A stretch of DNA of 64,000 nucleotides from Candidatus Levyibacteriota bacterium (GTDB taxonomy: Bacteria; Patescibacteriota; Microgenomatia; Levybacterales; UBA12049), in assembly GCA_029260965.1 (NCBI GenBank), contig JAJDCG010000002.1, forward strand, positions 124,707 through 188,706. The letters are read 5' to 3'. Within the stretch, counting starts at the first letter, position 1, and every line of letters starts with the position of its first letter. Of this stretch, positions 3,083 to 63,866 are shown piece after piece. The position numbers were made by a program, and so were the translations under genes. The notes beneath the pieces are model-generated. The model saw only the letters and a list, made by a program, of their open reading frames with translations. It searched no databases and was not told the DNA's origin.

Positions 3083-3964
3083 ATGAAAACATTCAGCCTC
3101 GGTACATTTTTATTAAAATATAAAAACGATGATGCCTGTTTAGAGCATATCAAAAATATAAGATTTCCTCAAGGAATAGGGTGTGCGAATTGTCGTACTA
3201 TTACTAAATTCACTAAAGTAAAAGGTCGCCCCGTCTATCAATGCTCTTGCGGTTATCAGGTAAGCCCTCTTGCAAACACAATCTTTGAGAAAACTACTAC
3301 ACCACTACAATACTGGTTTTATGCCATGTTCATAATGACCGCCACACGCTCTGGTATCTCTGCTAAGCAACTACAAAGAGAATTAGGGGTAACTTACAAG
3401 ACAGCTTGGCGTATGATGAAGCAAATAAGGCTTTTAATGGCAAATATTGACTATATACCCATGAGGGGTATCGTTGAGATTGATGAATCATATTTCGGTG
3501 GTAAACCAAGCAATAGAAAGTTCAAAGTTGCAGGCAAGGGAAAAGAGGCAGTTATGGGAATGGTTGAGCGTGAGGGCAAGGCATACATCAAACATATTCC
3601 AAATACTTATGGCTATACTTTGCTTGGTGTTATCAAGAAAAAGATTGATCCAAGAGCAAGGATAATGTCTGATGAATTACCCACATATAATCATCTTCGT
3701 AAAATGGGGTATGTTCACAGTAAGATCAATCACAGTAAAAGATATGTACTTGCTGATATCCACACTCAAAATATTGAGAGTATGTGGTCAAATATCAAAA
3801 GAGGTGTTTATGGAGTTTACAGGCACGTTTCCAGAGAATATCTACAGACTTACCTTGATGAGTATAGTTGGAGATTCAACCATCGCCAAAATCCAAGTGG
3901 TATGTTTGATTTGTTACTTTCTGAAATAGCTGAAGTGACGGCAATTAAAAGTAAATTGATATAG
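3083..3964 (+). CDS. IS1595-family (ISXO2-like) DDE transposase
   Basis: N-terminal zinc ribbon (CANCRTITKFTKVKGRPVYQCSCGY), then an HTH (ISAKQLQRELGVTYKTAWRMMKQI), then IVEIDESYFGGK, the ISXO2-like transposase core. Confidence 0.85.
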   Translation: MKTFSLGTFLLKYKNDDACLEHIKNIRFPQGIGCANCRTITKFTKVKGRPVYQCSCGYQVSPLANTIFEKTTTPLQYWFYAMFIMTATRSGISAKQLQRELGVTYKTAWRMMKQIRLLMANIDYIPMRGIVEIDESYFGGKPSNRKFKVAGKGKEAVMGMVEREGKAYIKHIPNTYGYTLLGVIKKKIDPRARIMSDELPTYNHLRKMGYVHSKINHSKRYVLADIHTQNIESMWSNIKRGVYGVYRHVSREYLQTYLDEYSWRFNHRQNPSGMFDLLLSEIAEVTAIKSKLI

Positions 3965-4433
3965 TTATATCTACTAGATCATAGTTGCTATTTTCTAAAA
4001 AAATGCTATGATTTATTTAGTATCTGAATAAGGATATTAGAGTTGAAGAAATTGACTTCAATTCGGCTAGAGAGAACAAACACAGCGATTTTTTTTCAGA
4101 AGATAAATCCTTTTTTGTGGTTTGAGAAGAAGTCGTACTGATTTCTTCTCTAGCCATAACGAAGGATTTTTTGTTTTCCGTTTCGACGCAGTTACTGACA
4201 TTGAACCTGAGCCGAGACATTGAAGGAGCGGAAATCGTAAACCTATTTTGGAGAGAAAACCAAGATGGTAAAAATGATAAAACCCGCTAGAAAATATAAA
4301 ATCTAATGCGGGATTTTTTTAGAGGACATTAACAATAAAAGACAATAATTAGGCAGGTATCATAAGTACTCCCTGAGTCATTGTAAATACAATTACAATG
4401 TTCCGTATATAACGGAGAAAGGAGTGATTACTA

Positions 4434-4538
4434 TGAATAATAAGAATAAGGTTCTGATATTCCGCTGGGCATTCAAACATCCAGTAACAGGAAAAATTAT
4501 CAGAGCAAAAACCAAGCCATTCCCCCTGTGGGTGTAGC
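4434..4538 (+). CDS. possible small basic protein, 34 aa (MNNKNKVLIFRWAFKHPVTGKIIRAKTKPFPLWV)
   Basis: Very good Shine-Dalgarno AAAGGAG 8 nt upstream of the ATG, inside an otherwise ORF-free 1.1 kb region. Confidence 0.3.
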
Positions 4539-4770
4539 TGGTGGTGTCATGTGCTAGGTTATTAACAGTCCTGAAATTGTTAAGTTAATAAAAATCTCAG
4601 GTATGGTATCTGCCTAATTGTTATCTTTTAAAGTGCAAAAACTATTAATGTTTGGGCGGACGTGTATTATACCATACGAGTCAAATGACATCAAAAGAAG
4701 ATTTTTGAGTCTGAAATCGGGCAGATTCAATACAGGCATACAATTAGTATCGGACTTTATTTGTATCTTG

Positions 4771-4953
4771 TCAAGTATCAAGACTTGTATCATTTTTATC
4801 AAATGCCTCATGCTTCGTACTCACTTTCACTAATCCAGCAAACATTTTCCTATCCACTTCTGCATTTTCAATAACCTTATGCAACTCTTTGTCCCCTTGA
4901 TTTTCGCTATGCCTTTTCTGTATTCTTTTTAATGTAAGCGTTTTAAAAGCCAT
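4771..4953 (-). CDS. small hypothetical protein, 60 aa, transcribed divergently from the Fic gene
   Basis: A minus-strand TTGACA-N16-TAGGAT element (about 4975-5003) directly precedes its ATG. Confidence 0.3.
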   Translation of the reverse strand: MAFKTLTLKRIQKRHSENQGDKELHKVIENAEVDRKMFAGLVKVSTKHEAFDKNDTSLDT

Positions 4954-5024
4954 ATCCCAATCCTAACAGATGACTATTTTCTGTCAAGATTCTTTACATG
5001 ACGTGTGGGTATATGTGCCTAGAT

Positions 5025-5096
5025 AGTTAGGTTTACATATAACCTTGCAATTAAGCTTACAAATAAACAGTATTGACAATTAGGTTTACAAATAGC
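5025..5096 (+). promoter_or_regulatory. two copies of the operator-like motif TTAGGTTTACA(T/A)ATA, 54 bp apart, upstream of the Fic promoter
   Basis: Copies at 5027-5041 and 5081-5095; the first lies within the palindrome AGGTTtacatatAACCT. Confidence 0.35.
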
Positions 5097-5125
5097 TTGA
5101 CAAATAGTCATAATTGTGTTATAAT
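5097..5125 (+). promoter_or_regulatory. consensus promoter TTGACA, 17-nt spacer, TGtTATAAT (extended -10)
   Basis: Perfect -35 and -10 at 5097-5102 and 5120-5125. The -10 lies inside the ORF-track start at 5114, so the real Fic start must be downstream. Confidence 0.55.
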
Positions 5126-5131
5126 TTATTC

Positions 5132-6178
5132 ATGTTTCAGCCTAAATTCACACTTAGTATGAAAATGCTCTCAACCCTGGGGAGTATTGAACGACTTTAT
5201 GGACAGCTTCATTCAGAAAAGTTAATTCCTTCCCTTTCGCTTCGTTTGACACAGGAAAATCAGATCCTGGCAACACATTACTCAACCAGCATTGAGGGCA
5301 ATCCCCTCTCGCCTCAGGACGTGACCAATGTAGTCCTGGGGGATCAGATCCCCAGCACCAAATCAGAGCGTGAAGTCAAGAATTACTTTGCGATTTTAAC
5401 TAGCCTGACTAATCTGGCGCGTCAAAATGTTCCTGTTTCAGTAGAGCTGACAGAAAAATTTCATGCTCAGCTCATGGACGGGCTTGAGGAGAAAAGTAAA
5501 TGGGGCCTCAGAGATGGAGGCGTTTTTGTCGGGCACAAGGAAAAGGATCAGATGGTCGTCAAGCACAATCCTCCATATCATACAAAAGCGGAGATCAAAA
5601 AAGCGCTCAATGAGCTTTATGATTGGCTAAAGAAAGAGAGTGATATTCATCCACTTCTAAAAGCTGGTATTTTTCATCATCAATTTGCCTATATCCATCC
5701 TTTTTTTGACGGAAATGGTCGTGTGGGTAGGATTTTGACTACTTATTTTTTACTTCTCAAGCACTATGAAGTCAGCAAATACTTTATATTGGATGATTAT
5801 TATGATATTGATCGTCATCTTTATTCAGACACACTGCATACTGCAGACAGTGGTGATAAGACAAGCTGGCTTGAATATTTCCTGGAGGGAATAGCCAGTT
5901 CAATGCAGGCAGCTGAGGGGCGGATAGTTGATTTGAAACGCATCAATTTGGATGATATTGAAGGAGAGAAAAGAGTTTTGGTAACTGCACGCGAGGAAGA
6001 TGTTTTGCAAATCATTATTGAGAAAAAAGCTATCAAAACATCTGATATAGAGGAGGCATTTAGTGTCACCCGCCAGCAGGCGCATGCGCTTCTTTCATCG
6101 CTTGTTGGTAAAGGGCTTCTTGAGAAGTTTGGTAAAACCAAAACAAGCTACTACAAATTGGCTAAGAATAGTTCTTGA
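5132..6178 (+). CDS. Fic-family protein (probable AMPylase) with N-terminal inhibitory motif and C-terminal winged helix
   Basis: Canonical Fic motif HPFFDGNGRVGR. An N-terminal S-x-x-x-E-G (STSIEGN) suggests a self-inhibited class. The start was moved downstream of the promoter; ATG 5132 or 5159 are both possible. Confidence 0.8.
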   Translation: MFQPKFTLSMKMLSTLGSIERLYGQLHSEKLIPSLSLRLTQENQILATHYSTSIEGNPLSPQDVTNVVLGDQIPSTKSEREVKNYFAILTSLTNLARQNVPVSVELTEKFHAQLMDGLEEKSKWGLRDGGVFVGHKEKDQMVVKHNPPYHTKAEIKKALNELYDWLKKESDIHPLLKAGIFHHQFAYIHPFFDGNGRVGRILTTYFLLLKHYEVSKYFILDDYYDIDRHLYSDTLHTADSGDKTSWLEYFLEGIASSMQAAEGRIVDLKRINLDDIEGEKRVLVTAREEDVLQIIIEKKAIKTSDIEEAFSVTRQQAHALLSSLVGKGLLEKFGKTKTSYYKLAKNSS

Positions 6179-6213
6179 CAGGTGGCATGTTGCTATTACT
6201 ATAATCAGTTAAT

Positions 6214-6708
6214 ATGGCATTCCCTGAGAGTGTCGCTTCTCATTTAGAACCGGAGAAACTTCGTGCTGCAATAATAACAGATACAAGTAGAAATATCTTT
6301 GTGGTAGATCAGGGTTTGATAGGAAGAGTGGGTAAAAGCATGATGGGTTTTTCTGTGGATGAAATAAATGATTCTTGGGTAGAGCCTGTTGCATTTGACT
6401 TAGGCTTAAGACATGATTTTATAGTCAAAGGAATTGAGAAAGGAAGAAAAATAGCTGAGGAGATGGAGCAGGTTTATCCATTGAGTGATAATAATCCAGA
6501 AACAAAGGGGTTAAGAACAATAGCGTATAGAGAAAATTCAGAAACATATCTTAGAGAGATCGAGGATGGACTAGAAAGGAATAGCTTTGCAGTTGGTTTT
6601 GCTGCTGGAATAGTACTGGGACAAAAAAAGATTCAAGAAAAAGTTTTGCTTGACTCCATGGGATTTGGTGATATAATCACTTCATTATGTCAAGTGCAGA
6701 AAGAATAA
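6214..6708 (+). CDS. hypothetical protein, 164 aa; first of three mosaic paralogous genes
   Basis: Its C-terminal region (VGFAAGIVLGQKKIQE) resembles the C-terminus of the third paralog. Its last ~18 codons are encoded by the duplicated promoter repeat. Confidence 0.55.
   Translation: MAFPESVASHLEPEKLRAAIITDTSRNIFVVDQGLIGRVGKSMMGFSVDEINDSWVEPVAFDLGLRHDFIVKGIEKGRKIAEEMEQVYPLSDNNPETKGLRTIAYRENSETYLREIEDGLERNSFAVGFAAGIVLGQKKIQEKVLLDSMGFGDIITSLCQVQKE
6650..6677 (+). promoter_or_regulatory. promoter copy 1: TTGACT, 16-nt spacer, TGaTATAAT
   Basis: Near-identical copy at 7234-7261. The ATG of the next gene is 9 nt after the -10, so the transcript is near-leaderless. Confidence 0.5.
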
Positions 6709-7184
6709 TCCCCGTAGATAAAAGTCCACTATTTGCCAAGCAAGTAAGTGAAGTGTTTGTATCGGCAATGTCCGAAGATCCTAGTAAATTTAAAGAACCT
6801 GCAAATGTTGTACGTCAATGGAGTATTGCAGCGGCCGAAGTTTATAACATTCATGACTGGCCTCCATTTATTAACGAGAAGCAAGAATTAGACGCATTCG
6901 TGGATACGATATCTAAAGCATATAATTGTGACCTAGAAGAAGTGAGAAAAGGCGTTGAGTTGGGTAAAAAGCTACGTGAAGCTGAGATGGTGAGGGGATA
7001 TGATCGCGAAAGAAAAAATAAAGTATTTGATTTATTGCGAGACAATGAATTCAAACAAGAAACCACAAATGAGGTTAGGGAGATAAGTTTGCAGGCTGGT
7101 TATTTGTTCCGGAAAAGAAGTCATCCTCCAGTTGTGAGGCAAAAGTATGAAAGAATTGACCGTGCATCTCTTCTAGAAGCATAA
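6687..7184 (+). CDS. hypothetical protein, 165 aa; paralog 2
   Basis: Homologous to paralog 3: VVRQWSIAAAEVY versus ITRQWIRVTADMY, and KAYNCDLEEVRKGVELGKKL versus EHFGCDPSVVMQGVSLGREI. Confidence 0.6.
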   Translation: MSSAERIIPVDKSPLFAKQVSEVFVSAMSEDPSKFKEPANVVRQWSIAAAEVYNIHDWPPFINEKQELDAFVDTISKAYNCDLEEVRKGVELGKKLREAEMVRGYDRERKNKVFDLLRDNEFKQETTNEVREISLQAGYLFRKRSHPPVVRQKYERIDRASLLEA

Positions 7185-7233: not shown

Positions 7234-7261
7234 TTGACTCCATGGGATTTGGTGTTATAAT
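7234..7261 (+). promoter_or_regulatory. promoter copy 2: TTGACT, 16-nt spacer, TGtTATAAT
   Basis: 28 of 29 nt identical to copy 1 (ttgactccatgggatttggtg[a/t]tataat). Confidence 0.5.
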
Positions 7262-7264
7262 TGC

Positions 7265-7780
7265 ATGAATATGAAAGAAGTAGGGCCAGCAAAGGATCAA
7301 ATCGAAGGAGTAGCTAGGGAGATAAATCCTTTTGTGTTAATCGTGAAAGAGAATCCAGACTTATTCAAAGATTTAAAAACGCCTCAGAATCTAATGAATA
7401 TTACACGTCAGTGGATCCGAGTAACAGCAGATATGTATGGTGAAGTTCTTTTTGATAGGAGTATAAAAGAAAGAAGCTTTGCGGCAGATGTATCTGAGCA
7501 TTTTGGTTGTGATCCATCAGTTGTGATGCAGGGGGTCAGTCTAGGGAGAGAAATCTATGCAAGGCTAGAAAAAGCATATCCAGGAGCAGATCATGATGGG
7601 GATATCCGTGAAGCACGAAGAATAGCAAGATTAAAGGCGATGGAATATCATTTGGGAGATTTTGAGGAGGATCAGAGAGTTGGTGCAGCATTTGGTATAG
7701 AAGCAGGCGTTATATTTCCCCAGCAGAGAATTGAGGATCCTGAATTTCTGAGAAATCAGGGCATCAATCCATTTTCATAA
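7265..7780 (+). CDS. hypothetical protein, 171 aa; paralog 3. The real start is probably the second ATG at 7271, 9 nt after the -10.
   Basis: Combines the N-terminal region shared with paralog 2 and the C-terminal region shared with paralog 1. Confidence 0.6.
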   Translation: MNMKEVGPAKDQIEGVAREINPFVLIVKENPDLFKDLKTPQNLMNITRQWIRVTADMYGEVLFDRSIKERSFAADVSEHFGCDPSVVMQGVSLGREIYARLEKAYPGADHDGDIREARRIARLKAMEYHLGDFEEDQRVGAAFGIEAGVIFPQQRIEDPEFLRNQGINPFS

Positions 7781-7823
7781 AATTCTTTTTTGCTTCCCTA
7801 CAATTTAGATATATAATATCCTC

Positions 7824-8702
7824 ATGAGTGAGAATTCTCCCAAAATCGGTCTTGCGCTGGGATCAGGTGGTGCCAGAGGTTTGGCGCATATCGGCGTTCT
7901 TAAAGCGCTTGAGAAAGCGGACATAAAAATAGATTATGTTGCAGGTTCCAGTATCGGTGCGCTGATTGGTGCATACTATGCTGCCTCCCCCACTCTTTCA
8001 AAATTGGAAGAATTCATTTTCTCTTTCAACAAGAGAAAAGGTTTTGCACTTTTTGATCCTACACTCCGCGGAGGGCTTATAAAAGGCAACAAATTTGAAA
8101 AATTGATTGAAGACCTTCTGGATGAGAAAAAATTTGAACGTTTGCGTATACCATTCTCTGCAGTGGCAACTGATTTTAATACCGCAGAGGAGGTGGTCCT
8201 GGATAATGGCGTACTGGCCAAGGCGGTGCGTGCAAGCATCTCTGTTCCTGCAGTTTTCCGTCCTGTTGAGCTAGGAAAACAAATCTTGGCAGACGGAGGG
8301 TTGTCCAATCCCGTACCTGTATCAGTAGTGCGTGAGATGGGTGCTGATTTGGTGATTGCTGTAAATGTAGAGCCCAGCTATTTTTATAAACCTATTGAGA
8401 GCCTGCCGCCACTCACAGGTATACCTGCACATTCTGTAAATATTCTCAGGCATAATCTGACGTTTCATTCGCTCAAGACTGCGGACATAGTTATTTCCCC
8501 CGATACGCCCGTCAGGAGTCTCGTCGGGTGGGATTATTTTTTTGATCGTGAGAAAGCGCGTGCTGTCATCGCGGCAGGGGAAAAAGCCGCAGAAAAAGCA
8601 ATTCCCGAGATAAGAAGGTTAGTTGAGGAGAGAGGCAAGAGGAAAGAAAGTATTTGGGAAAAATTTATAATAGTTTTTAAAAACAAGCATAGGCTGCGTT
8701 AG
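7824..8702 (+). CDS. patatin-like phospholipase
   Basis: GxGxxG oxyanion motif (GSGGARG), nucleophile elbow GSSIG (GxSxG) and the catalytic Asp in ADGG. Confidence 0.85.
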   Translation: MSENSPKIGLALGSGGARGLAHIGVLKALEKADIKIDYVAGSSIGALIGAYYAASPTLSKLEEFIFSFNKRKGFALFDPTLRGGLIKGNKFEKLIEDLLDEKKFERLRIPFSAVATDFNTAEEVVLDNGVLAKAVRASISVPAVFRPVELGKQILADGGLSNPVPVSVVREMGADLVIAVNVEPSYFYKPIESLPPLTGIPAHSVNILRHNLTFHSLKTADIVISPDTPVRSLVGWDYFFDREKARAVIAAGEKAAEKAIPEIRRLVEERGKRKESIWEKFIIVFKNKHRLR

Positions 8703-10486: not shown

Positions 10487-11173
10487 TTAGGAGTTAGAGG
10501 TTAGGGAAAGTAGGGTGTTTTCAATTGCAAAGCGTGGATTTACATTTGTGGTTTTGAGAAGTGTATGGAGAGACTGCATTGCACCAAGGGCTTCACGCGT
10601 ACTGCGAGTACCACCTGCTTCATTTATCATTTGTCCGTGGAGAATGCGGATGAGTTGTTCAATCCAGACGATTGCTTTATCTTTGTCTTTGGCTAGTATT
10701 TCTGCTTTCTTGAGTCTATCCCCTATCTTCATTGATGGGAGAGCTTTTATAAATTCTTCAAGCGTTTCTCTCCCCTCTCCCGATAAATGGGTTGTAGATT
10801 TTTCGAGTTTAATTATCTGACAACGGGAGAGTATGGTTGGTAGAAGTTTTTCAGTTGTTCCCGTGCCTAGCATGATGTAGGTATTGGTTGGTGGTTCCTC
10901 AAGGACTTTGAGAAGTGAGTTTTGCGCTTCAGTTGTGAGAAGGTCTGCGTCTTCTATGATTACGGCTTTTTCTTTGGAGTTTACTGGTTTGAGAAATATT
11001 TTCTTCTGTATTTTTTTGACATCATCAATACCTATGCTTTGTAGATTTTTGGAATCTTCTTCCTTTTGGATAAAAGTTATATCAAATCTGTCGATATTTT
11101 TTTTCTCAAAAAAATCCTTTGCGAATTCTTCCCTCTTTTTCTTATCAACTGATACAACAACAAAACTTGTCAT
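10487..11173 (-). CDS. holB: DNA polymerase III delta-prime-like clamp-loader subunit
   Basis: ILSRCQ motif and AAA+ fold without an intact Walker A. The start was placed at the internal ATG (MTSFVVV...), which has a TATAAT 6 nt upstream; the longer ORF to 11260 has an implausible N-terminal extension. Confidence 0.65.
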   Translation of the reverse strand: MTSFVVVSVDKKKREEFAKDFFEKKNIDRFDITFIQKEEDSKNLQSIGIDDVKKIQKKIFLKPVNSKEKAVIIEDADLLTTEAQNSLLKVLEEPPTNTYIMLGTGTTEKLLPTILSRCQIIKLEKSTTHLSGEGRETLEEFIKALPSMKIGDRLKKAEILAKDKDKAIVWIEQLIRILHGQMINEAGGTRSTREALGAMQSLHTLLKTTNVNPRFAIENTLLSLTSNS

Positions 11174-11271
11174 AAGGCTATTATAGCAGTATAATATCCC
11201 TATATGGATAGTAAAGAAACAATAAGAAGGAGCAGGATAGTTTCTATAGAGCAAGAGCAAAGAGAAAGTAA

Positions 11272-11604
11272 TGGATATACCAGGGACCTAGAATAAGAAA
11301 GACTCCAGATTCAAGCTGGATAGGAGACGCAAGGTGTAAAGATACAGATCCTAAAATATTTGAACGTGAAAAAACTAGAGGAAAGGATGGATTAGTAGTT
11401 GTTGAATTTCCTGATAATGGGAGATCGGCAAAACGCATTTGTGCAAAATGTCCAGTTGTCGATAGCTGCTTGCAATATGCAATTCAAACAAGAGATGAGT
11501 TAACTATTAGAGGTGGCTTAACGCCTGATGAAAGAAAACGTTATCGGGGTTTGCATTCAGATCCTGCAAAGGCGAGTTATCTAATATCTGCGAGGAAAGT
11601 TTAA
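11272..11604 (+). CDS. WhiB-like (Wbl) 4Fe-4S transcription factor. The open frame has no canonical in-frame start; the nearest ATG (11271) is 1 nt out of frame.
   Basis: The translation includes ...SSWIGDARCKDTDPKIFE...SAKRICAKCPVVDSCLQYAIQTRDELTIRGGLTPDERKRYRG. It has the C-x(n)-C-x2-C-x5-C cluster, a G[VI]WGG-like turn (IRGG) and a basic tail. Absent from the ORF track because there is no ATG. Confidence 0.6.
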   Translation, partial: WIYQGPRIRKTPDSSWIGDARCKDTDPKIFEREKTRGKDGLVVVEFPDNGRSAKRICAKCPVVDSCLQYAIQTRDELTIRGGLTPDERKRYRGLHSDPAKASYLISARKV

Positions 11605-11664
11605 TGATGTAATTTTTAGCTTTACCAATTGACTTGACCGCCTCTATTTCATACTATAATAGTA

Positions 11665-13401
11665 ATGCCCGATATACAATCTACACCTTCAGTTCAGTTG
11701 ACTGATCCAAAGTCAATTATAGATATACTCTTATCAGAGAATTTACTGACAAAAGAACAATATGATGCTGTTTCTGTAAAGGCTGCATCCGATGGAAGAT
11801 CCCCTACTGAAGTTTTGAAAGAAATGGGCTTGGTTTCTGAAGATCAGATCGGCAAAGCGCTGGCACAGCTTGTGGGAGTGCCCTATGTTGATTTGAGCAA
11901 TGTTTCATTTTCTCCGCAGGCAATTGGATTTTTAACACGTCCAGTTGTTGAAAGATTTTCCCTCATTCCTTTTCATTATGACGAAAAAGAGGGTACGTTG
12001 TCCGTTGCGATGGCAGATCCTCTTAATCTTGATGCGGTGACTTTTATAGGTCAAAAAACAGGACTTAGTATAAAATCTTTTGCTGCAAGTCCATCTGATA
12101 TCAAAAAAGCCATTGATCTGCAATATCAACATGGGTTGGCTGGTGATGTTGGCGAGGCAATAAAAGAAACAGAGGAGTTTAGAAAAGAAAGAACAGTTGA
12201 TAGTTCTGAAATAGGACAAATAATTCACGAAGCTCCGATTGCCAAGATTGTTTCAACGATTCTCGAATATGCTGTAAATTCAAGAGCGTCTGATGTGCAC
12301 ATTGAGCCACAGGAGGATCGCGTGAGAGTGCGCTATAGAATTGACGGAATTTTATATGACAAGCTCAGTCTGCCAATCAGTGTGCAGGAGTCGCTTACAT
12401 CGCGTATAAAAATCTTAGCCCAAATGAAAATTGATGAGCACAGGATTCCTCAGGATGGCAGGTTGAATTTCAAAGTAAAGGATCAAGAAGTTGACTTGCG
12501 TGTTTCAACTGTACCTACTGTCAAGGGTGAGAGTATTGCCATGAGGCTTTTGAGAAAAAGTGGCGGAATACCCACTCTTCAAGAGTTGGGTCTGGGTGGA
12601 TCAGCGCTCAAATCTCTGGAAACAGCAGCACTTCGTGCGCATGGGATAATACTTGTTTGTGGGCCAACTGGTTCAGGAAAAACAACAACACTTTATGCAC
12701 TTCTTTCGCGTCTAAATACGACCAGGGTTAACATCGCTTCTCTGGAGGATCCTGTAGAGTATGAGATTCCTGGAGTTAATCAGGTTCAGATCAATCCAGC
12801 AGTTGGTTTGACTTTTGCATCGGGCTTGAGATCTTTTTTGCGACAGGATCCAAATATAATACTTGTTGGAGAGGTAAGAGATGGTGAAACAACTGATCTA
12901 GCTATTCAGGCAGCATTAACTGGACATCTTGTTTTCTCAACACTTCATACATCTGATGCAGCAGGCGCACTTCCTCGCCTCATGGACCTGGGAGCAGAGA
13001 CTTTTTTGCTTTCATCAACAGTAAATGCGATTGTTGCGCAACGAATTGTCAGGAAGATCTGTCAGACCTGCAAGACGAGCTTTTCTCCACCACAGCAATT
13101 GTTGGAAGAGATAAAACTTGTTTTAGGTAGTTTTTTTCCAAAAGACAAAGAAATTATCCTTTACAAAGGTCAAGGCTGTGAGAAGTGCGCAAGGCTCGGC
13201 TATTTGGGAAGAATAGGTATATTTGAAGTCATGAACGTTGATGATAAGATTACTCGTCTTATTCTTGATAATGCAGGTAGTAGTGAGATTCAAAAGTTGG
13301 CCGTTCAGAATGGTATGATCACCATGAAGCAGGATGGTTACCTAAAAGCTTTAAGAGGTGAAACCACAATAGAGGAAGTGCTTCGGGTTGCACAAGAGTG
13401 A
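11665..13401 (+). CDS. pilB: type IV pilus assembly ATPase PilB (GspE family)
   Basis: N-terminal GSPII domain, Walker A GPTGSGKTTT and a tetracysteine motif (CQTC...CEKC). Confidence 0.9.
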   Translation: MPDIQSTPSVQLTDPKSIIDILLSENLLTKEQYDAVSVKAASDGRSPTEVLKEMGLVSEDQIGKALAQLVGVPYVDLSNVSFSPQAIGFLTRPVVERFSLIPFHYDEKEGTLSVAMADPLNLDAVTFIGQKTGLSIKSFAASPSDIKKAIDLQYQHGLAGDVGEAIKETEEFRKERTVDSSEIGQIIHEAPIAKIVSTILEYAVNSRASDVHIEPQEDRVRVRYRIDGILYDKLSLPISVQESLTSRIKILAQMKIDEHRIPQDGRLNFKVKDQEVDLRVSTVPTVKGESIAMRLLRKSGGIPTLQELGLGGSALKSLETAALRAHGIILVCGPTGSGKTTTLYALLSRLNTTRVNIASLEDPVEYEIPGVNQVQINPAVGLTFASGLRSFLRQDPNIILVGEVRDGETTDLAIQAALTGHLVFSTLHTSDAAGALPRLMDLGAETFLLSSTVNAIVAQRIVRKICQTCKTSFSPPQQLLEEIKLVLGSFFPKDKEIILYKGQGCEKCARLGYLGRIGIFEVMNVDDKITRLILDNAGSSEIQKLAVQNGMITMKQDGYLKALRGETTIEEVLRVAQE

Positions 13402-22089: not shown

Positions 22090-22590
22090 ATGATAAACGC
22101 AAAAATAAGCAAAGGGTTTACGTTTATTGAACTGCTTTTAACCATTGCTTTTTTAGCTGTTTTAGCAGTTGGGATACTGACGCTTATAAATCCTGTAGAA
22201 CAGATAAGTAAGGCAAATGATTCTAGAAGAAAGTCTGATTTGGAAATAATAAAGACAGCTGTTGATACTTATTATAACGATTTCGGTTCATATCCTACTT
22301 CAAATGCTTCCTATGAGATTTCTGGAGTAGCCTGGGGTGCTTCATGGCAGCCCTACCTAAGCCAGGTACCCAAAGACAAAAATGGGAGAACTTTTGTTTA
22401 CTATTCTCCCCCCGCATCTAACGGTCAAACTTATTATCTTTATACCTCTCTGGAGAGAGGAGGAAAAGATATTAATGCTTGTAATCCCGACGGTTCAGCT
22501 TGCTTGAATGTTCCAATGGGAGTTGTTTGTGGAGGTAATGCCTCTATGATATGTAATTATGGGGTGTCTAGCCCCAATGTGACACCATGA
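22090..22590 (+). CDS. minor pilin / pseudopilin (prepilin-type N-terminus)
   Basis: ...SKG|FTFIELLLTIAFLAVLA; the start was moved to the internal Met to give a normal-length leader. Confidence 0.65.
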   Translation: MINAKISKGFTFIELLLTIAFLAVLAVGILTLINPVEQISKANDSRRKSDLEIIKTAVDTYYNDFGSYPTSNASYEISGVAWGASWQPYLSQVPKDKNGRTFVYYSPPASNGQTYYLYTSLERGGKDINACNPDGSACLNVPMGVVCGGNASMICNYGVSSPNVTP

Positions 22591-26514: not shown

Positions 26515-27040
26515 TATTAATTTACTAAAAGCTAATGAAACTACAAAAGTATCCAAGCTTACAAGAACTCAAAGAATTTTGAGAATCATTGCTGTTAGCC
26601 TCCTGTTTGTTGTTTCTTCAGCATCAATGATTATTTTAGTATTGATTATTCTTTCACCGTTACCCGCGTTAAGGGAGGAAGAGCAAAATGCAAGACTCAC
26701 TTTGGAAAATGCTCATGCAGATTTAGCCAAGTTGATAGTTGTGAAAGAAAGAGCTGATAGCATTAATAATATTATTCTAAATCGTAAGTATTACGGTCAA
26801 TCGCTTGAAAAAATTTTTTCTAAAACAGCAGGTGTTTCAGTTGGGTCCATGGATATAAAATCAAAAACAATTTCAATGACTCTTAGTAGTAGTTCCCTTC
26901 TTTTGTTGGATAATTTTTTGATAGACATGGTAGAGACAGTTGAGCAAAAGGATGGATTTACCAAGATGAATGTAGTAAGCATAACCACAGCAGAAGGTTC
27001 AGCTGAATATGAAATGGAGATAATACTGGAGATGTTATGA
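26504..27040 (+). CDS. pilN: PilN-like bitopic pilus assembly protein
   Basis: Single TM after a short basic N-terminus, followed by a periplasmic-type domain; position after pilM. Confidence 0.55.
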   Translation: MKNNINLLKANETTKVSKLTRTQRILRIIAVSLLFVVSSASMIILVLIILSPLPALREEEQNARLTLENAHADLAKLIVVKERADSINNIILNRKYYGQSLEKIFSKTAGVSVGSMDIKSKTISMTLSSSSLLLLDNFLIDMVETVEQKDGFTKMNVVSITTAEGSAEYEMEIILEML

Positions 27041-47386: not shown

Positions 47387-47800
47387 TTGGTAATAGGAAT
47401 TATGACTAAGAAAAACAAAAAATACGAACTTCCCGAATTTGCAGACGATATATTTATGCCCGACGATTTAATGAAGGTTCTTGTAAAGCGTAATGGGTGT
47501 ATGTATTTCTGGGGCATACCTTACAAAATCTACAAATCTAGTCGATTTCAGGATATGGAAGAACCGTACAAGGACGAAGATTTAGAGGCACTAGGTGGGG
47601 TTTTGTTAGATATTCTAGTACTTAATGGGCTTTCAATTGACTTCAAGCAAAAAACGGGCGTACAGAAGCTAAGCGTCATTGTACGGTCGTCTGAAAGCGA
47701 AGATAAACAGCTACTTCATAAATTGGCTACTGGGATTCGTGCAAATGACAAGCAATTGAATAGAGATAGCATTCCAGGAACTAATAACGACAATGAATAA
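47387..47800 (+). CDS. hypothetical protein, 137 aa (island-borne)
   Basis: ORF overlapping the integrase start by 8 nt. Confidence 0.45.
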   Translation: MVIGIMTKKNKKYELPEFADDIFMPDDLMKVLVKRNGCMYFWGIPYKIYKSSRFQDMEEPYKDEDLEALGGVLLDILVLNGLSIDFKQKTGVQKLSVIVRSSESEDKQLLHKLATGIRANDKQLNRDSIPGTNNDNE

Positions 47801-49583
47801 ACAACAGACTGCACCACTTCGAGCCGCCGTTTATCTTCGGGTATCTACTGACGACCAGATAGAAAAATATGGCATACCTTTACAGAAGGCGGCTGTTGAA
47901 GCGGTAGTTAATTCAAAAGGTAAACTAGACGACGGCTCACCCGCTATGGTTCTAGCTGGCGAACAATACATTTACAAAGACGAAGGGATTAGTGGTACTA
48001 CGCCACTAGAAGAACGGCCTGGTTTTGTACTAATGAAGGAAGATATTGAAAACGCGCTAGGTGGCGTAAAACCTTTTGATATTGTAGCCGTCTATCGTAT
48101 CGACAGATTCGCCCGTAAATTAAAAATCTTGCTAGAAGTAATCGACTATTTCGAAGCGCGCGATATTCAGTTCATTTCAGCCAATGAGAGCATAGATACT
48201 TCTACGCCATTCGGTAAAGCCATGCTAGGGATTATCGGTGTAATAGCCGAGCTAGAAAGGGAAACTACCAAAGCTAGAACACAAGCTGGTAAGGAACAAG
48301 CTATCGAACGTGGGGTGTATATGGGTGCAAGCGCGCCTTATGGGTACGTAAAGGACAAGGATAAGCGACTGCAAATTTTCCCGCCAGAAGCCGATATTGT
48401 ACGCAGTATATTTGAAATGTTTGTAGTTGAAAAAAGAAATACCCAGCAAATAGCCGACCGCCTTACAGATAAAAAGGTGCTTACACCCCTACCTTCCGCA
48501 ATTAAATACGAAAAAAGGAAAGCTGGACGGACAAAAGTTAATGACCCGTATTTCTGGCGTGATTCGACAGTTAGAGATATTGTCAAAGACGAAGTGTATC
48601 TAGGAATTTATCACTACAATAAAAACCAGGGAACTAAGCGGTTAGATAGGTCTTTATGGAAAGAATCACCATACCGCCACGGTGATATTGTTGACTTGGG
48701 TACTTTCGAACTGGCGCAAAGACGCATTAAAGAAGATATTGCCTTACGTAACAGTATGAAAACGGCTGATAATCACCTTTACCTACTATCTGGTCTATTA
48801 AAATGTCATGCTTGCTACGACCCCCATTCTGACCGTGACCCGCTTAACTGGACGGGTACGAGTAAAGTCATTAAGAAAAGTAATAAGCGCGCCTACTACT
48901 ACCAATGTGGAGCTAAGAATACTAAAAAATACTCTACCGTTTGTAAGGCTATACCATTTCCAGCCGACGAAATCGAACAGTTTGCAACTGACTTTGTAAA
49001 GAACCTTCTAAGCGACCCTGAAAGCGTCTATAACCATGTTAATTCCCTTCAATCAACCAAAGTTAAGAAACGGCTATTAGAGAAAAAACAGTCAGAAGTT
49101 ACCAAATTACTTAATGAACTACCGCGCCGACGCCAGAATGTGAAGCGAATGTATAAGCGCTGCGATATTGGCGATAGTGAGTATGACGAAGAAATGGAAG
49201 GTATAAAGGCAAAGGAAGCTGAATACAAGACAGATTTAGACGCAATACAATTGCAAATCGGCGAAAGCAAGCTGTCGGATATATATACCCGCACACTTAA
49301 ATTATTTGCAAAGAAGTATAAGCCTTTCCTAGACGGCTTAATGACTGATAGGCAAGAAGTATCAGAACTAATTCACCTTATTGTCGATAGAATCCACGTT
49401 TATACACGTAAGGCGACTAAAAACGACAAAATAGCGGGTCGGAAGAAGGAAGACCAGGTAATACCATACCAAGTTAGAATCGACTTACGCCTGCCACAAG
49501 ACATGATGAAACGATTTGCCCAGCAAGGCAAGTTCGAAGTCAAAAATGCTGAATTGTGGGCGCAAGAGGAGTCGAACCCCTGA
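47793..49583 (+). CDS. large serine recombinase (integrase)
   Basis: Resolvase catalytic domain with AAVYLRVSTDDQ (the Ser nucleophile), a recombinase domain, a Cys-rich zinc ribbon (CHACY...CGAK...C) and a coiled-coil. The last 9 codons are encoded by the tRNA-Val 3' half on the opposite strand. Confidence 0.9.
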   Translation: MNKQQTAPLRAAVYLRVSTDDQIEKYGIPLQKAAVEAVVNSKGKLDDGSPAMVLAGEQYIYKDEGISGTTPLEERPGFVLMKEDIENALGGVKPFDIVAVYRIDRFARKLKILLEVIDYFEARDIQFISANESIDTSTPFGKAMLGIIGVIAELERETTKARTQAGKEQAIERGVYMGASAPYGYVKDKDKRLQIFPPEADIVRSIFEMFVVEKRNTQQIADRLTDKKVLTPLPSAIKYEKRKAGRTKVNDPYFWRDSTVRDIVKDEVYLGIYHYNKNQGTKRLDRSLWKESPYRHGDIVDLGTFELAQRRIKEDIALRNSMKTADNHLYLLSGLLKCHACYDPHSDRDPLNWTGTSKVIKKSNKRAYYYQCGAKNTKKYSTVCKAIPFPADEIEQFATDFVKNLLSDPESVYNHVNSLQSTKVKKRLLEKKQSEVTKLLNELPRRRQNVKRMYKRCDIGDSEYDEEMEGIKAKEAEYKTDLDAIQLQIGESKLSDIYTRTLKLFAKKYKPFLDGLMTDRQEVSELIHLIVDRIHVYTRKATKNDKIAGRKKEDQVIPYQVRIDLRLPQDMMKRFAQQGKFEVKNAELWAQEESNP

Positions 49584-49630
49584 CCTTTACAATGTCAATG
49601 TAACGCTCTAACCAGCTGAGCTATGCGCCC
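49557..49630 (-). tRNA. tRNA-Val (anticodon GAC)
   Basis: Reverse complement GGGCGCATAGCTCAGCTGGTTAGAGCG TTACA-TTGACAT-TGTAA ...GGTTCGACTCC...TGCGCCCA; cloverleaf with the GAC anticodon. Confidence 0.85.
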
Positions 49631-56266: not shown

Positions 56267-56968
56267 ATGCTTGGAACAATACTTACAAGTATTATTTCCT
56301 CAGCTTTACTCCTCTCAACACCTTTTCCATCTTCACAATCAGCCACAAACAGCTACATATTTACGCGTGTTCTCCCTCAGGAGAATTACGTAGCTCATGT
56401 GGTGGAGGAAAAAGACACACTCTCAAGAATTGCTCTTGAGCGCTACGGAGACAAGGATTACTGGATAAATATCTGGAAAGATAATCCAGAGATAAAAAAT
56501 CCAGATGATCTTGAGATTGGTACGTTTTTGAGAATTAGTATGGAAAAACCTGATAAGAAGTTTGAGCTGGAGCAGAAAGAGAATTCTGAACCTGAAAATG
56601 AAGCACCATCTCTGCCTACAATTCAGCCTACCGAAACTGTCGCATTACCTACAACAGTTCCTAATCTACCAGAGCCAGAGGTAACTGAGCTGCCTCCAAG
56701 TCCGAATGTCTTGAATGATGCGCAGATCACATACCTTGGAAACTGCGAAGCAGGTATGGATCCGACAAAAAATACCGGGAATGGTTACTATGGAGCTTTC
56801 CAGTTCTCATACGGCACTTGGAAAAGCATGGGTACAGGTTATGAAAGGGCTGATTTAGCACCACTTGAGGTTCAGGTCGATGCTGTACAGAGACTTCTTT
56901 CCAGATCAAGTATTTACACACAATTCCCAGGTTGTGCTCGCAAAATGGCAAGTGCTGGTCTTTTGTAA
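56267..56968 (+). CDS. LysM-domain protein with a C-terminal Rpf-type (transglycosylase-like) domain
   Basis: N-terminal signal/TM and a LysM (HVVEEKDTLSRIALERYGD...). C-terminal CEAG...NTGNGYYGAFQFSYGTWKSMG...ADLAPLEVQVDAVQRL closely parallels the resuscitation-promoting-factor catalytic domain. Confidence 0.8.
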   Translation: MLGTILTSIISSALLLSTPFPSSQSATNSYIFTRVLPQENYVAHVVEEKDTLSRIALERYGDKDYWINIWKDNPEIKNPDDLEIGTFLRISMEKPDKKFELEQKENSEPENEAPSLPTIQPTETVALPTTVPNLPEPEVTELPPSPNVLNDAQITYLGNCEAGMDPTKNTGNGYYGAFQFSYGTWKSMGTGYERADLAPLEVQVDAVQRLLSRSSIYTQFPGCARKMASAGLL

Positions 56969-63409: not shown

Positions 63410-63416
63410 TATCATT

Positions 63417-63866
63417 ATGAATAAATTCTTGAAATTTTTGGCAGCAATAGTTATTTGCCAAGGAGCAGGGATTTTGGGTTCGTTTTTTACAATCAACTCT
63501 GTTAACACATGGTACGCAACGCTTGAAAAACCGATCTTTAATCCCCCATCCTGGGTATTTGGTCCTGTTTGGATAACTCTTTATTTTTTGATGGGAGTTT
63601 CTCTCTTTCTTGCCTGGGACAAGAAGATAAATCTCAGATGGTTTTGGACACAGCTCGTGTTAAATAGCCTTTGGAGCATCATTTTTTTTGGACTTCAGAA
63701 TCCTACGCTTGCACTGGCAAACATCATACTTCTTTGGGTTGCGATTTTTATGACAATAAAGACTTTCTGGAAAAAGAACAGGACTGCATCTCTTCTGTTA
63801 TATCCATATCTTCTTTGGGTTACTTATGCTAGTTTTTTAAATCTTTACATCGTAATCCTAAATTAA
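63417..63866 (+). CDS. tspO: TspO/MBR tryptophan-rich sensory protein
   Basis: Five TM segments, with the W-rich WYATLEKPIFNPPSWVFGPVW signature. Confidence 0.8.
   Translation: MNKFLKFLAAIVICQGAGILGSFFTINSVNTWYATLEKPIFNPPSWVFGPVWITLYFLMGVSLFLAWDKKINLRWFWTQLVLNSLWSIIFFGLQNPTLALANIILLWVAIFMTIKTFWKKNRTASLLLYPYLLWVTYASFLNLYIVILN

What the first reader, a model, noticed from the sequence alone, without database searches (positions are those of the whole stretch)
11240..11604. WhiB-like (Wbl) Fe-S regulator gene lacking an in-frame start codon
The open frame 11272-11604 encodes a clear WhiB-type protein, with C...C-x2-C-x5-C, an IRGG turn and a basic tail. The ORF track missed it because there is no ATG, GTG or TTG in frame before the first Cys. 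The nearest ATG (11271, preceded by a purine-rich AAGAGAAAG) is in a frame 1 nt upstream and terminates after 6 codons. The possibilities are a +1 frameshift (programmed or mutational), a sequencing indel, or a rare start codon. Wbl proteins are regarded as hallmarks of Actinobacteria and their phages. Together with the Rpf-like gene at 56267, this suggests exchange with an actinobacterial partner or phage. That idea would fit a Saccharibacteria-type epibiont, but it is inference.
Basis: partly seen in the sequence, partly recalled or inferred. Interest (0 to 1): 0.7.

Follow-up and report, generated by a model that had tools for sequence, protein, structure and literature searches.

The report
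Frame-broken WhiB-like gene in a CPR bacterium
An iron-sulfur regulator gene of a type described only from Actinobacteria and their phages sits inside the chromosome of a tiny candidate-phyla-radiation bacterium, and it lacks a start codon most probably because a one-base frame break separates it from its real start 68 bases upstream.

Summary
Frame 11272-11604 encodes an intact WhiB-like (Wbl) domain: Pfam PF02467 scores 61 bits, all family-invariant residues are present, the AF2 model has pLDDT 89, and the top 13 PDB fold hits are all Wbl. There is no in-frame ATG, GTG or TTG before codon 67.

This genome makes no use of Shine-Dalgarno sites (4/50 genes, equal to background) and is rich in leaderless mRNAs (22/50 genes have a -10 box 4-11 nt before the ATG). 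A near-consensus promoter, TTGTCA-17-TATAAT, sits 8 nt before ATG 11204. That ATG opens a 30-codon ORF in the -1 frame, which overlaps the Wbl frame at 11272-11296. One added base in 11272-11293 gives a single 133-codon gene.

I found no slippery site, no stimulatory RNA structure and no other broken gene in the window. My best reading (about 0.5) is a leaderless Wbl gene with a one-base frame break, either a young pseudogene or an uncorrected indel. The main rival (about 0.2) is a leader ORF coupled to an ATA start at 11293.

Three syntenic relatives have holB next to pilB with no wbl, so the gene is a lineage-specific insertion. Its GC matches the host and its best homologue is 53% identical or less. 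The host is Patescibacteria, with Levybacteria as the nearest named relatives rather than Saccharibacteria.

The parts
11167..11195 (+). Sigma-70-type promoter TTGTCA (11167-11172), 17 nt spacer, TATAAT (11190-11195). The -35 overlaps the holB start codon (CAT 11171-11173) and is the ancestral -35 of the pilB promoter in relatives.
   Evidence: 11 of 12 matches; and alignment A1 show the same aaaacTTGTCAtaa in L005, L030 and L031.
11204..11296 (+). ATG-initiated 30-codon ORF (MDSKETIRRSRIVSIEQEQRESNGYTRDLE*), 8 nt after the -10 box. It is the likely leaderless translation start. I read it as the N-terminal part of the Wbl gene (preferred) or as a leader ORF.
   Evidence: The -10-to-ATG geometry is found at 22/50 curated genes against 5.3% of other ATGs. 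Stop-free for 29 codons with p=0.088 given composition.
11272..11293 (+). Overlap of the two open frames, where the frame break must lie. One added base here (for example GGG 11283-11285 to GGGG) fuses 11204 to 11604 into one 133-codon ORF. No X XXY YYZ heptamer is present.
   Evidence: five one-base insertions each give a 133-aa product; direct reading.
11271..11291 (+).
11272..11604 (+). Start-less open frame of 110 codons encoding the Wbl protein. In-frame ATA codons at 11275, 11293 and 11320. ATA 11293 overlaps the TAA of the upstream ORF (ATAA).
11317..11541 (+). Whib domain (residues 16-90): W16 (AP1), C22, F30 (AP2), C57, C60, C66, I79-R80-G81-G82 turn, R88.
   Evidence: profile 1-64 of 65; alignment to WhiB1; invariant columns.
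11177..11626 (+). Approximate extent of the lineage-specific insertion between the ancestral -35 (TTGTCAtaa) and the remains of the ancestral pilB promoter spacer.
   Evidence: holB|pilB gaps of 23, 29 and 164 bp with no wbl in L005, L030 and L031; tblastn finds no Wbl in those loci.
11629..11657 (+). pilB promoter in the window (TTGACT-17-TACTAT, then 7 nt to ATG 11665). The TTGACTTGACC duplication appears to have rebuilt a -35 after the insertion.
   Evidence: inference from the alignment.
10487..11173 (-). Left flank: holB (DNA polymerase III delta'), itself leaderless (TATAAT 11185-11180, 6 nt, ATG 11173).
11665..13401 (+). Right flank: pilB, the first gene of pilB-pilT-pilC. No terminator was predicted on the + strand between wbl and pilB.

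Best explanation
A single Wbl gene was inserted between holB and pilB in the chromosome of a Patescibacteria (Levybacteria-like) bacterium.

It is transcribed from a composite promoter made of the resident -35 TTGTCA and its own TATAAT. The mRNA is leaderless, with ATG 11204 at its 5' end.

The intact gene would be 133 codons. It would have a 37-residue charged N-terminal extension ahead of W16, followed by a standard Wbl domain. That domain would hold a [4Fe-4S] cluster on C22/C57/C60/C66 and dock on region 4 of the primary sigma factor through W16, F30 and the cluster pocket.

In the sequence as given, one base is missing somewhere in 11272-11293. Ribosomes starting at 11204 therefore stop at TAA 11294 after 30 codons, and the Wbl frame has no start of its own. 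The locus is thus either a very recently inactivated gene or an intact gene with a one-base error in the assembly. It is not a programmed recoding site.

Shown here: the Wbl identity and fold, the lack of a canonical start, the promoter and ATG geometry, the overlap of the two frames, the repair by one base, and the insertion relative to relatives.

Inferred: that transcription starts near 11202-11204, that 11204 is the start codon used, that the break is a deletion rather than a natural arrangement, and cluster and sigma binding.
For: Wbl identity:
- Pfam 61.2 bits.
- All eight invariant and seven near-invariant columns of a 47-sequence alignment are present.
- AF2 pLDDT 89.3, and the 13 best PDB fold matches are all Wbl; 6ono_A has TM 0.84 and rmsd 2.0 A.

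Start codon:
- The promoter matches 11 of 12 consensus positions and lies 8 nt before ATG 11204.
- The same architecture (-35, 17 nt, -10, 7 nt, ATG) drives pilB in three relatives.
- 22/50 curated genes have a -10-like box 4-11 nt before the ATG, against 5.3% of other ATGs. SD-like words occur at 4/50, against a 9% background.
- Of eight strong-promoter-plus-ATG sites in the window, five open long genes.

Frames:
- The 11204 ORF and the Wbl frame overlap by 25 nt, and any of five one-base insertions gives one 133-aa ORF.
- The 29 codons after the ATG are stop-free, p=0.088.

Not programmed:
- There is no slippery heptamer.
- The RNA fold of 11203-11345 has z=-0.87.

One event suffices and explains both the missing start and the orphan ATG.
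Against: - No orthologue exists to show the intact state. The best homologue is 53% identical or less.
- No intact version is in the 15-billion-protein collection, even though neighbouring proteins of this genome are there from both NCBI and Logan assemblies. That argues against a simple assembler error, but it does not decide between a mutation and a natural arrangement.
- No frameshift was seen in the roughly 50 genes of the window that I inspected or annotated, so the assembly looks clean.
- The Wbl domain shows no decay at all.
- The stop of the upstream ORF overlaps an in-frame ATA as ATAA. This is exactly the geometry of the ATGA stop-start overlaps used elsewhere in the window. The chance of this is about 0.3, so it modestly favours the leader-ORF rival.
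- This genome has at least one other leaderless short ORF upstream of a gene (52461).
- The codon-usage score of 11204-11269 looks coding (5.9), but stop-free shuffles of the same bases score the same. It therefore gives no frame evidence.
- The N-terminal 22 residues have no homologue.
Confidence: 0.5

Rival explanations
1. The arrangement is natural, or nearly so. ATG 11204 opens a separate leaderless 30-codon leader ORF. Ribosomes terminating at TAA 11294-11296 reinitiate on the overlapping in-frame ATA 11293 (ATAA, possibly an ATGA that suffered a G-to-A change at 11295), or initiate at ATA 11275. The result is a 103- or 109-residue Wbl made at a low, possibly regulated, level.
For: - The Wbl frame is exactly the frame expected for a 4-nt stop/start overlap with the upstream ORF.
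- 4-nt stop-start overlaps occur between other genes of the window, from the coordinates at 22587-22590 and 27037-27040.
- Starting at 11293 gives MRKTPDSSW..., which resembles the N-termini of homologues such as P0028 (MTPDLSWHDEAVC).
- WhiB1 needs only two residues before the conserved Trp.
- A second leaderless short ORF with a terminator-like hairpin lies upstream of the gene at 52340.
- The Wbl domain is fully intact and no intact single-ORF version is on record.
- From my own knowledge, not tested here: uORF-controlled expression is established for whiB7/wblC.
Against: - All 50 curated genes start with ATG (although I chose the starts myself).
- From my recollection of Hecht et al. 2017, not checked here: ATA initiates at no more than a few percent of AUG in E. 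coli.
- Short leader ORFs are the minority outcome of strong leaderless promoters here (3 of 8).
- No attenuator-like structure is present.
- There is no conservation to test.
Confidence: 0.22
2. Translation starts at ATG 11271, and a +1 shift is needed to enter the Wbl frame. This could be a one-base insertion in the sequence, for example GGG instead of GG, or a ribosomal +1 slip on GGG-A. The product would be a 110-residue protein, MDIPGPRIRK...
For: - Deleting one base in 11280-11288 gives a clean 110-aa ORF.
- A tRNA-Gly could re-pair from GGG to GGA (reasoning from the sequence).
- The length would be typical for a Wbl.
Against: - No promoter box or SD-like word lies before 11271.
- SD sites are not used in this genome.
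- The strong promoter puts a different ATG at the 5' end of the transcript, and ribosomes translating from 11204 run across 11271.
- The codon after GGG (ACC) is neither a stop nor a known slow codon, so there is no known +1 stimulator.
- It leaves the leaderless ATG and its 30-codon open frame unexplained.
Confidence: 0.07
3. Programmed -1 ribosomal frameshifting from the 11204 ORF into the Wbl frame makes a 133-residue protein from the sequence exactly as given.
For: Two overlapping open frames in a -1 relation, an intact downstream domain, and a 5-bp hairpin at 11304-11320 a few bases after the overlap.
Against: - No X XXY YYZ heptamer lies anywhere in 11270-11293.
- No tRNA re-pairing is possible at any codon of the overlap (read).
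- The region folds no better than shuffles (z=-0.87).
- There is no homopolymer for transcriptional slippage.
- There are no orthologues to show conservation.
Confidence: 0.05
4. Artefact: a mis-assembled or contaminating actinobacterial or phage fragment, or a chance open frame.
For: In the literature Wbl is restricted to Actinobacteria and their phages (PMC6282962, PMC13013590).
Against: - The gene lies inside a conserved patatin-mgsA-holB | pilB-pilT-pilC block shared with three CPR relatives. A chimera would need two junctions within 450 bp.
- Its GC of 39.3% equals the host's, and its GC3 is lower still.
- It shares a promoter element with holB.
- Chance openness has p=0.0002.
- The Pfam score is 61 bits.
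Confidence: 0.01

Closest known systems
Mycobacterium tuberculosis WhiB1 (PDB 5OAY, 6ONO) and Streptomyces venezuelae WhiB (8DY7/8DY9)
   Same: The Wbl fold is shared (6ono_A TM 0.84, rmsd 2.0 A). So are the four Cys ligands, the conserved Trp before Cys1 (W3 = W16), F17 = F30, the DP motif, the GG turn and the ER(R/K) helix. Sequence E-values are 2e-8 to 7e-8 at 30-33% identity.
   Different: - AP3 is Glu (E31) instead of Phe, and AP4 is Arg (R80) instead of Trp.
- There is a 7-residue longer loop between Cys1 and Cys2, modelled as a beta-hairpin.
- The tail is only weakly basic.
- The host is a CPR bacterium.
- There is no canonical start codon.
Actinophage WhiB-family transcription factors (e.g. 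Mycobacterium phage YoureAdopted gp49)
   Same: Small single-domain Wbl proteins carried as single mobile genes. 669 phage records match, all with actinobacterial hosts among the categories listed. Variants of the turn such as IRGG, IMGG and IKGG occur among the nearest uncultured homologues, some of them on phage-like contigs.
   Different: The best identity is only 38% over 85% of the length. The gene here is chromosomal, has no phage genes around it, and has host-like composition.
whiB7/wblC leader with upstream ORF (ribosome-mediated attenuation)
   Same: A short translated ORF lies in front of a Wbl coding sequence on the same transcript.
   Different: From my own knowledge, whiB7 has its own canonical start and a terminator/antiterminator leader. 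Here the two frames overlap, no structure is predicted, and the Wbl frame has no canonical start.
Programmed frameshift genes (dnaX -1, prfB +1)
   Same: Two overlapping frames are needed for one product.
   Different: There is no slippery sequence, no stimulatory SD or structure, and no conservation.

Membership tests
WhiB-like (Wbl) family, Pfam PF02467 | Profile match above the curated threshold over the whole domain | tested here: met
   61.2 bits against a cutoff of 23.6, E=1.5e-16, profile positions 1-64 of 65.
WhiB-like (Wbl) family, Pfam PF02467 | Four Cys ligands, C-x(n)-C-x2-C-x5-C | tested here: met
   C22, C57, C60 and C66 are all invariant columns in a 47-sequence alignment.
WhiB-like (Wbl) family, Pfam PF02467 | Gly-rich beta-turn (G[V/I]WGG) | tested here: inconclusive
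   The turn reads T-I-R-G-G. The invariant GG is present, but the Trp is Arg and the first Gly is Thr. The same IRGG is seen in homologue P0018.
WhiB-like (Wbl) family, Pfam PF02467 | Aromatic patch AP1-4 (W3, F17, F18, W60 of WhiB1). In PMC13013590, 98.7% of 995 Wbls have at least two aromatic residues at AP1-4, including at least one at AP2-3. | tested here: met
   By the alignment, W16 = AP1 and F30 = AP2, while E31 sits at AP3 and R80 at AP4. This meets the minimal pattern only.
WhiB-like (Wbl) family, Pfam PF02467 | Wbl fold | tested here: met
   AF2 mean pLDDT 89.3 and pTM 0.71. The top 13 Foldseek PDB matches are all WhiB, WhiB1, WhiB3 or WhiB7.
WhiB-like (Wbl) family, Pfam PF02467 | Binds a [4Fe-4S] cluster | not testable with these tools
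   Needs anaerobic purification and UV-visible or EPR spectroscopy.
WhiB-like (Wbl) family, Pfam PF02467 | Binds region 4 of the primary sigma factor in a manner dependent on His516/Pro517 (Mtb SigA numbering) | not testable with these tools
   The host rpoD was not found among the window proteins I annotated. The requirement is taken from PMC6954389 and PMC13013590.
WhiB-like (Wbl) family, Pfam PF02467 | Occurs in Actinobacteria or actinophages (a taxonomic restriction stated in reviews) | tested here: not met
   The host block is syntenic with CPR relatives. The named relatives are mostly Levybacteria or 'Patescibacteria group', with a few other names. This is a distribution statement, not a structural criterion.
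Functional protein-coding gene | Canonical start codon in frame with the domain | tested here: not met
   There is no ATG, GTG or TTG between TAA 11269 and codon 67.
Leaderless mRNA gene | -10 box about 5-9 nt upstream of an ATG, with a -35 at 16-18 nt | tested here: met
   TTGTCA-17-TATAAT-8-ATG 11204. The geometry is enriched at gene starts of this window.
Leaderless mRNA gene | Mapped 5' end at the start codon | not testable with these tools
   Needs 5'-RACE or dRNA-seq.
Programmed -1 ribosomal frameshift site | Slippery heptamer X XXY YYZ in the overlap | tested here: not met
   None is present in 11270-11293.
Programmed -1 ribosomal frameshift site | Stable downstream structure or upstream SD stimulator | tested here: not met
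   MFE -18.2 kcal/mol against shuffles at -15.7 +/- 2.9, z=-0.87.
Programmed -1 ribosomal frameshift site | Conservation of the two-frame arrangement in orthologues | not testable with these tools
   No orthologue was found in the genome, metagenome or viral collections.

The most novel reading that the evidence does not exclude
The locus is a working Wbl regulator native to a Patescibacteria genome. It would be the first outside Actinobacteria and their phages. It was acquired long ago (host-like composition, a rebuilt pilB promoter next to it) and is expressed from a leaderless transcript, either through a short leader ORF with non-AUG reinitiation at ATA 11293 or through an unrecognised recoding event. 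It may also feed transcription into the type IV pilus operon immediately downstream.
Probability: 0.22. Interest if true: 0.7.

Novelty: new member of a known kind. Interest (0 to 1): 0.5.

Why it matters
Reviews and a 2026 structural survey state that Wbl proteins occur exclusively in Actinobacteria and actinophages (PMC6282962, PMC13013590). Phage studies use whiB as a marker to assign actinobacterial hosts (bioRxiv 10.1101/2023.05.30.542503).

A Wbl gene integrated in a CPR chromosome, with host-like composition and a promoter shared with a housekeeping neighbour, shows that the family can settle outside that phylum. This would weaken host assignment by whiB alone. If the protein is made, it raises the question of whether the Wbl-sigma region 4 mechanism works with a non-actinobacterial sigma factor.

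Together with the Rpf-domain gene in the same window, it is a trace of gene flow between CPR bacteria and Actinobacteria or their phages.

There is also a practical lesson. In SD-free, leaderless-rich genomes, the place to look for a start is the ATG just after a -10 box, and gene callers will silently drop a gene like this one.

Tried and rejected
1. Word-indexed homologue search with the 110-aa frame found nothing.

2. The full HMMER scan found 4984 Wbl relatives but none closer than 53% identity. No orthologue could be aligned to settle the start.

3. Back-translated pattern scans of GTDB genomes, JGI metagenomes and IMG/VR found only distant, mostly high-GC Wbl genes.

Exact look-ups of the 30-aa ORF, the 44-aa TTG ORF and seven 'repaired' proteins were all absent. 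The tenth query in that call (holB) used a start one codon too long and is meaningless.

5. Codon-usage scoring of 11204-11269 looked coding (5.9, against 6.1 +/- 3.6 for real genes). I rejected it as frame evidence because stop-free mononucleotide shuffles score 6.3.

6. I looked for homology of the 22-residue N-terminal piece to the N-termini of 150 Wbl hits and found none.

7. I suspected a frameshift at 17816/18570. Instead, the kinase ORF most likely starts at a later in-frame ATG, about 18678, which removes most of the overlap; the upstream ORF has no Pfam match.

8. Gaps at 28.5-29.2 kb and 29.9-30.8 kb hold intact small ORFs that look like ribosomal-protein and NusB-type genes (read by eye, not searched), not broken genes.

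9. I checked the contexts of four low-GC Wbl hits. Two are on phage-like contigs, one is on a 1.4-kb contig too short to tell, and one is on a 942-kb low-GC contig whose gene content does not look like CPR. None is in a CPR context.

10. The similarity between the 11204 leader and the 5' end of the gene at 52340 (22 of 29 nt) is probably chance in purine-rich DNA.

11. Literature searches for WhiB together with Saccharibacteria, Patescibacteria or candidate phyla radiation found no report of a CPR-encoded Wbl.
Full report
OBSERVATION

The plus-strand frame 11272-11604 opens right after TAA 11269-11271. It runs 110 codons to TAA 11602-11604.

Its translation is WIYQGPRIRKTPDSSWIGDARCKDTDPKIFEREKTRGKDGLVVVEFPDNGRSAKRICAKCPVVDSCLQYAIQTRDELTIRGGLTPDERKRYRGLHSDPAKASYLISARKV.

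It matches Pfam Whib (PF02467) at 61.2 bits against a curated cutoff of 23.6, with E=1.5e-16, over profile positions 1-64 of 65.

The first in-frame ATG, GTG or TTG is TTG 11470 (codon 67), downstream of all four Cys.

Among all open frames in the window with a coding-like codon score, this one has the most codons before a canonical start (66). The next ones I checked lie inside or beside known genes. A stop-free run of 110 codons with this composition has p=0.0002.

IS IT A REAL WBL?

A full HMMER scan of 1.84 billion cluster representatives gave 4984 relatives at E<=0.001. The best is only 44-53% identical (E about 2e-11), and none reaches E<=1e-30.

In an alignment with 46 of these relatives, every invariant column is present in the window protein: C22, A53, C57, C60, C66, G81, G82 and R88. 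So is every near-invariant column: W16, D26, P27, F30, V62, L67 and A70.

AlphaFold2 with that alignment gives mean pLDDT 89.3. The 13 best Foldseek matches in the PDB are all Wbl proteins: S. venezuelae WhiB and Mtb WhiB1, WhiB3 and WhiB7. For 6ono_A the TM-score is 0.84 and the rmsd 2.0 A.

By sequence, the closest solved proteins are WhiB1 (E 2e-8) and WhiB (6e-8).

I mapped the 'aromatic patch' that PMC13013590 describes as a shared Wbl motif for sigma-factor binding onto that alignment:
- W16 corresponds to AP1 and F30 to AP2.
- AP3 is Glu (E31) and AP4 is Arg (R80, hence IRGG rather than VWGG).
- The protein therefore has the pattern found in 98.7% of the Wbls surveyed there (at least two aromatics, including at least one at AP2-3), but not the full patch.

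The domain shows no sign of decay.

THE GENOME'S WAY OF STARTING GENES

This is what changes the reading. In 50 curated genes of the window:
- All starts I assigned are ATG.
- Stops are TAA 32, TAG 8 and TGA 10, which is the standard code.
- SD-like words 4-12 nt upstream occur at 4/50 genes, no more than at random ATGs (9%).
- A TATAAT-like box ending 4-11 nt before the ATG occurs at 22/50 genes, against 5.3% of other ATGs.

The genome therefore largely uses leaderless mRNAs for genes that follow a promoter. The purine-rich AAGAGAAAG before ATG 11271 cannot be taken as a ribosome-binding site.

THE MISSED START

The promoter scan finds TTGTCA (11167-11172), a 17-nt spacer and TATAAT (11190-11195), matching 11 of 12 consensus positions. 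ATG 11204 lies 8 nt downstream.

That ATG opens a 30-codon ORF (MDSKETIRRSRIVSIEQEQRESNGYTRDLE*), which ends at TAA 11294-11296. This ORF is in the -1 frame relative to Wbl, and the two frames overlap at 11272-11296.

Of eight sites in the window with a strong -35, a strong -10 and an ATG 5-9 nt downstream, five open long genes. The 29 codons after ATG 11204 are stop-free with p=0.088 given their composition.

Adding one base anywhere suitable in 11272-11293 joins 11204 to 11604 into a single 133-codon ORF. For example, GGG 11283-11285 could become GGGG, or either CC could become CCC.

ORIGIN OF THE LOCUS

The neighbouring PilB has relatives at 73-75% identity. I fetched three of their loci. 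All keep the block patatin, (one gene), mgsA, holB | pilB, pilT, pilC, response regulator. In all three, holB and pilB are only 23, 29 or 164 bp apart with no wbl. tblastn confirms no Wbl in those loci.

In these relatives pilB is itself leaderless: aaaacTTGTCAt.a, 17 nt, TACACT, 7 nt, ATGcccgat.

In the window, the left half of that promoter (TTGTCAtaa, overlapping the holB start codon CAT 11171-11173) now serves wbl together with a new TATAAT. The right half (TACTAT aatagta ATGcccgat) still serves pilB. It is preceded by a TTGACTTGACC duplication that supplies a new -35 at 17 nt.

The wbl cassette, about 11177-11626, is therefore a lineage-specific insertion into the pilB promoter. The promoter seems to have been repaired afterwards, although that last step is inference.

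The gene's GC is 39.3%, against 38.8 +/- 3.1% for host genes. Its GC3 is 22.5%, against 32.7 +/- 4.7%. The best cultured-phage WhiB is 38% identical. This is not a fresh import from a high-GC actinobacterium, and an assembly chimera is very unlikely.

HOST

The window carries gyrB, aminoacyl-tRNA synthetases, ribosomal proteins, a type IV pilus operon, a PBP and Obg.

In the PheT search the taxon-informative names on relatives are Levybacteria/Levyibacteriota, 'Patescibacteria group', and one 'Methylomirabilota' name (P0298, 60% identity), which I suspect is a mis-binned genome. In the PilB search the names are mixed: one 'Saccharimonadales' at 72%, Levybacteria at 70%, 'Patescibacteria group', and a few other phylum names. 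Levyibacteriota belongs to the Microgenomates group of Patescibacteria.

The host is a CPR bacterium. A Saccharibacteria epibiont is not shown.

WHY THE FRAME IS BROKEN

Programmed recoding finds no support:
- No X XXY YYZ heptamer is present.
- No codon in the overlap allows tRNA re-pairing.
- There is no homopolymer for transcriptional slippage.
- The 143-nt RNA from 11203 folds no better than shuffles (z=-0.87).

An assembly that is error-prone throughout is also unlikely. I saw no frameshift in the roughly 50 genes of the window that I inspected or annotated. No intact version of the protein exists in the 15-billion-protein collection, although PilB and PheT of this same contig are there from both NCBI and Logan.

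That leaves two readings that each need a single event.

(a) A 133-codon leaderless gene that lost one base within a 22-nt stretch. This is my preferred reading. A promoter followed directly by a long gene is the usual architecture in this window, and this reading explains both the orphan ATG and the start-less domain.

(b) A leader ORF coupled to the Wbl frame. The stop of the 11204 ORF and the in-frame ATA 11293 overlap as ATAA, the same geometry as the 4-nt stop-start overlaps at 22587 and 27037 (coordinates). A G at 11295 would give ATG-AGA-AAG-ACT-CCA-GAT-TCA-AGC-TGG, that is MRKTPDSSW, much like the N-termini of several homologues.

A second leaderless short ORF exists in the window, at 52461-52402. 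It has 19 codons and is followed by a terminator-like hairpin directly before the ATG of the next gene. Leader ORFs are therefore not foreign to this genome.

My rough weighting is:
- One-base break in a single leaderless gene: 0.5.
- Leader ORF with a non-AUG start: 0.22.
- Programmed -1 frameshifting: 0.05.
- Artefact: 0.01.

The codon-usage score of the 22 upstream codons looks coding. I do not count it, because shuffles of the same bases score equally.

WHAT IT WOULD DO

If the protein is made, everything testable says it is a standard monomeric Wbl. It would carry a [4Fe-4S] cluster on four Cys and dock on region 4 of the primary sigma factor, with the cluster acting as an O2/NO/redox-sensitive switch. 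This mechanism is taken from PMC6954389, PMC6282962 and PMC13013590.

Cluster binding and sigma binding are inferred, not shown. Glu at AP3 and Arg at AP4 make the strength of sigma binding uncertain.

No terminator is predicted between wbl and pilB. The strong wbl promoter may therefore also read into the pilus operon, which is inference.

COMPARISON AND NOVELTY

The protein is a new, divergent member of a known family. What is unusual is where it is and how it is (not) started.

Wbl proteins are described as exclusive to Actinobacteria and actinophages (PMC6282962, PMC13013590). My literature searches found no report of one encoded by a CPR genome.

Of four low-GC Wbl relatives whose contexts I looked up, two are on phage-like contigs, one is on a 1.4-kb contig too short to tell, and one is on a 942-kb contig whose gene content does not look like CPR. 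That sample is too small to claim uniqueness.

The same window has an Rpf-domain protein. Its best solved relatives are Mtb RpfB/E/C, at E 3e-10. The general idea of gene flow from the actinobacterial world is therefore reasonable.

Because the gene is seen in one genome only and may be dead, I score interest at 0.5.

Noticed in passing
whole window (e.g. 5126-5134, 6206-6216, 6678-6689, 7818-7826, 11661-11667, 43606-43597, 63411-63419): Gene starts show no Shine-Dalgarno enrichment (4/50 against a 9% background). 22/50 have a TATAAT-like box 4-11 nt before the ATG (5.3% background), so leaderless mRNAs seem to be the main mode of initiation for promoter-proximal genes in this CPR genome.
   Followed up: yes
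52461-52340 (- strand): TTGACA-16-TATACT-9-ATG drives a 19-codon ORF (MMKKLNKSVTLSLILFINP*, 52461-52402). It is followed by a CCCGC/GCGGG hairpin (52370-52353) and a T-run ending directly at ATG 52340 of a 520-aa gene with no Pfam match. This looks like a leader-peptide attenuator.
   Followed up: partly
56267-56968 (+): A 233-aa protein with a C-terminal Rpf-type transglycosylase domain (PF06737, E 1.5e-11). Its best solved relatives are Mtb RpfB, RpfE and RpfC (E 3e-10), and its CEAG aligns with the CEAGG of RpfB. To my knowledge this is mainly an actinobacterial family, which would make it the second such family in this CPR window.
   Followed up: partly
47793-49630: A large serine recombinase gene (596 aa; Resolvase, Recombinase and Zn-ribbon domains) whose 3' end overlaps tRNA-Val (49556-49630, - strand). 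This may be the edge of an integrated element.
   Followed up: no
3083-3964 and 5132-6178: An IS1595-family transposase and a Fic-domain protein with a 1.1-kb gene-poor stretch between them (3965-5113).
   Followed up: no
6650-6689 and 7234-7273: Two nearly identical promoters (TTGACTccatgggatttggtg[a/t]TATAAT) precede the ORFs at 6687-7184 and 7265/7271-7780, which have no Pfam match. This looks like a tandem duplication including the promoter.
   Followed up: no
11204-11232 versus 52340-52312 (- strand): The first 29 nt after ATG 11204 are 22/29 identical, without gaps, to the first 29 nt of the gene at 52340 (MDSKETIRRSR against MSRTETIRGRD). This is probably chance in purine-rich sequence, but it could mean the wbl leader was copied from a resident gene.
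   Followed up: partly
42395-42340 (- strand): The IF3 gene (infC) has only a TTG (42395), immediately followed by ATA, as a candidate start, and it overlaps the upstream tRNA-synthetase gene by 17 nt. Its true start codon is unclear; to my knowledge infC uses a non-AUG start in many bacteria.
   Followed up: no
L031 2837-3000: One relative has a 164-bp non-coding expansion at exactly the same holB|pilB promoter site where the window carries wbl. This suggests the spot tolerates or attracts insertions.
   Followed up: no
L027 6001-6396: A 131-aa Wbl (P0136, IKGG turn) lies on a 942-kb contig of only 36.8% GC, next to DivIC- and bactofilin-like genes. This is a low-GC cellular lineage with a Wbl, and its taxon was not determined.
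   Followed up: no
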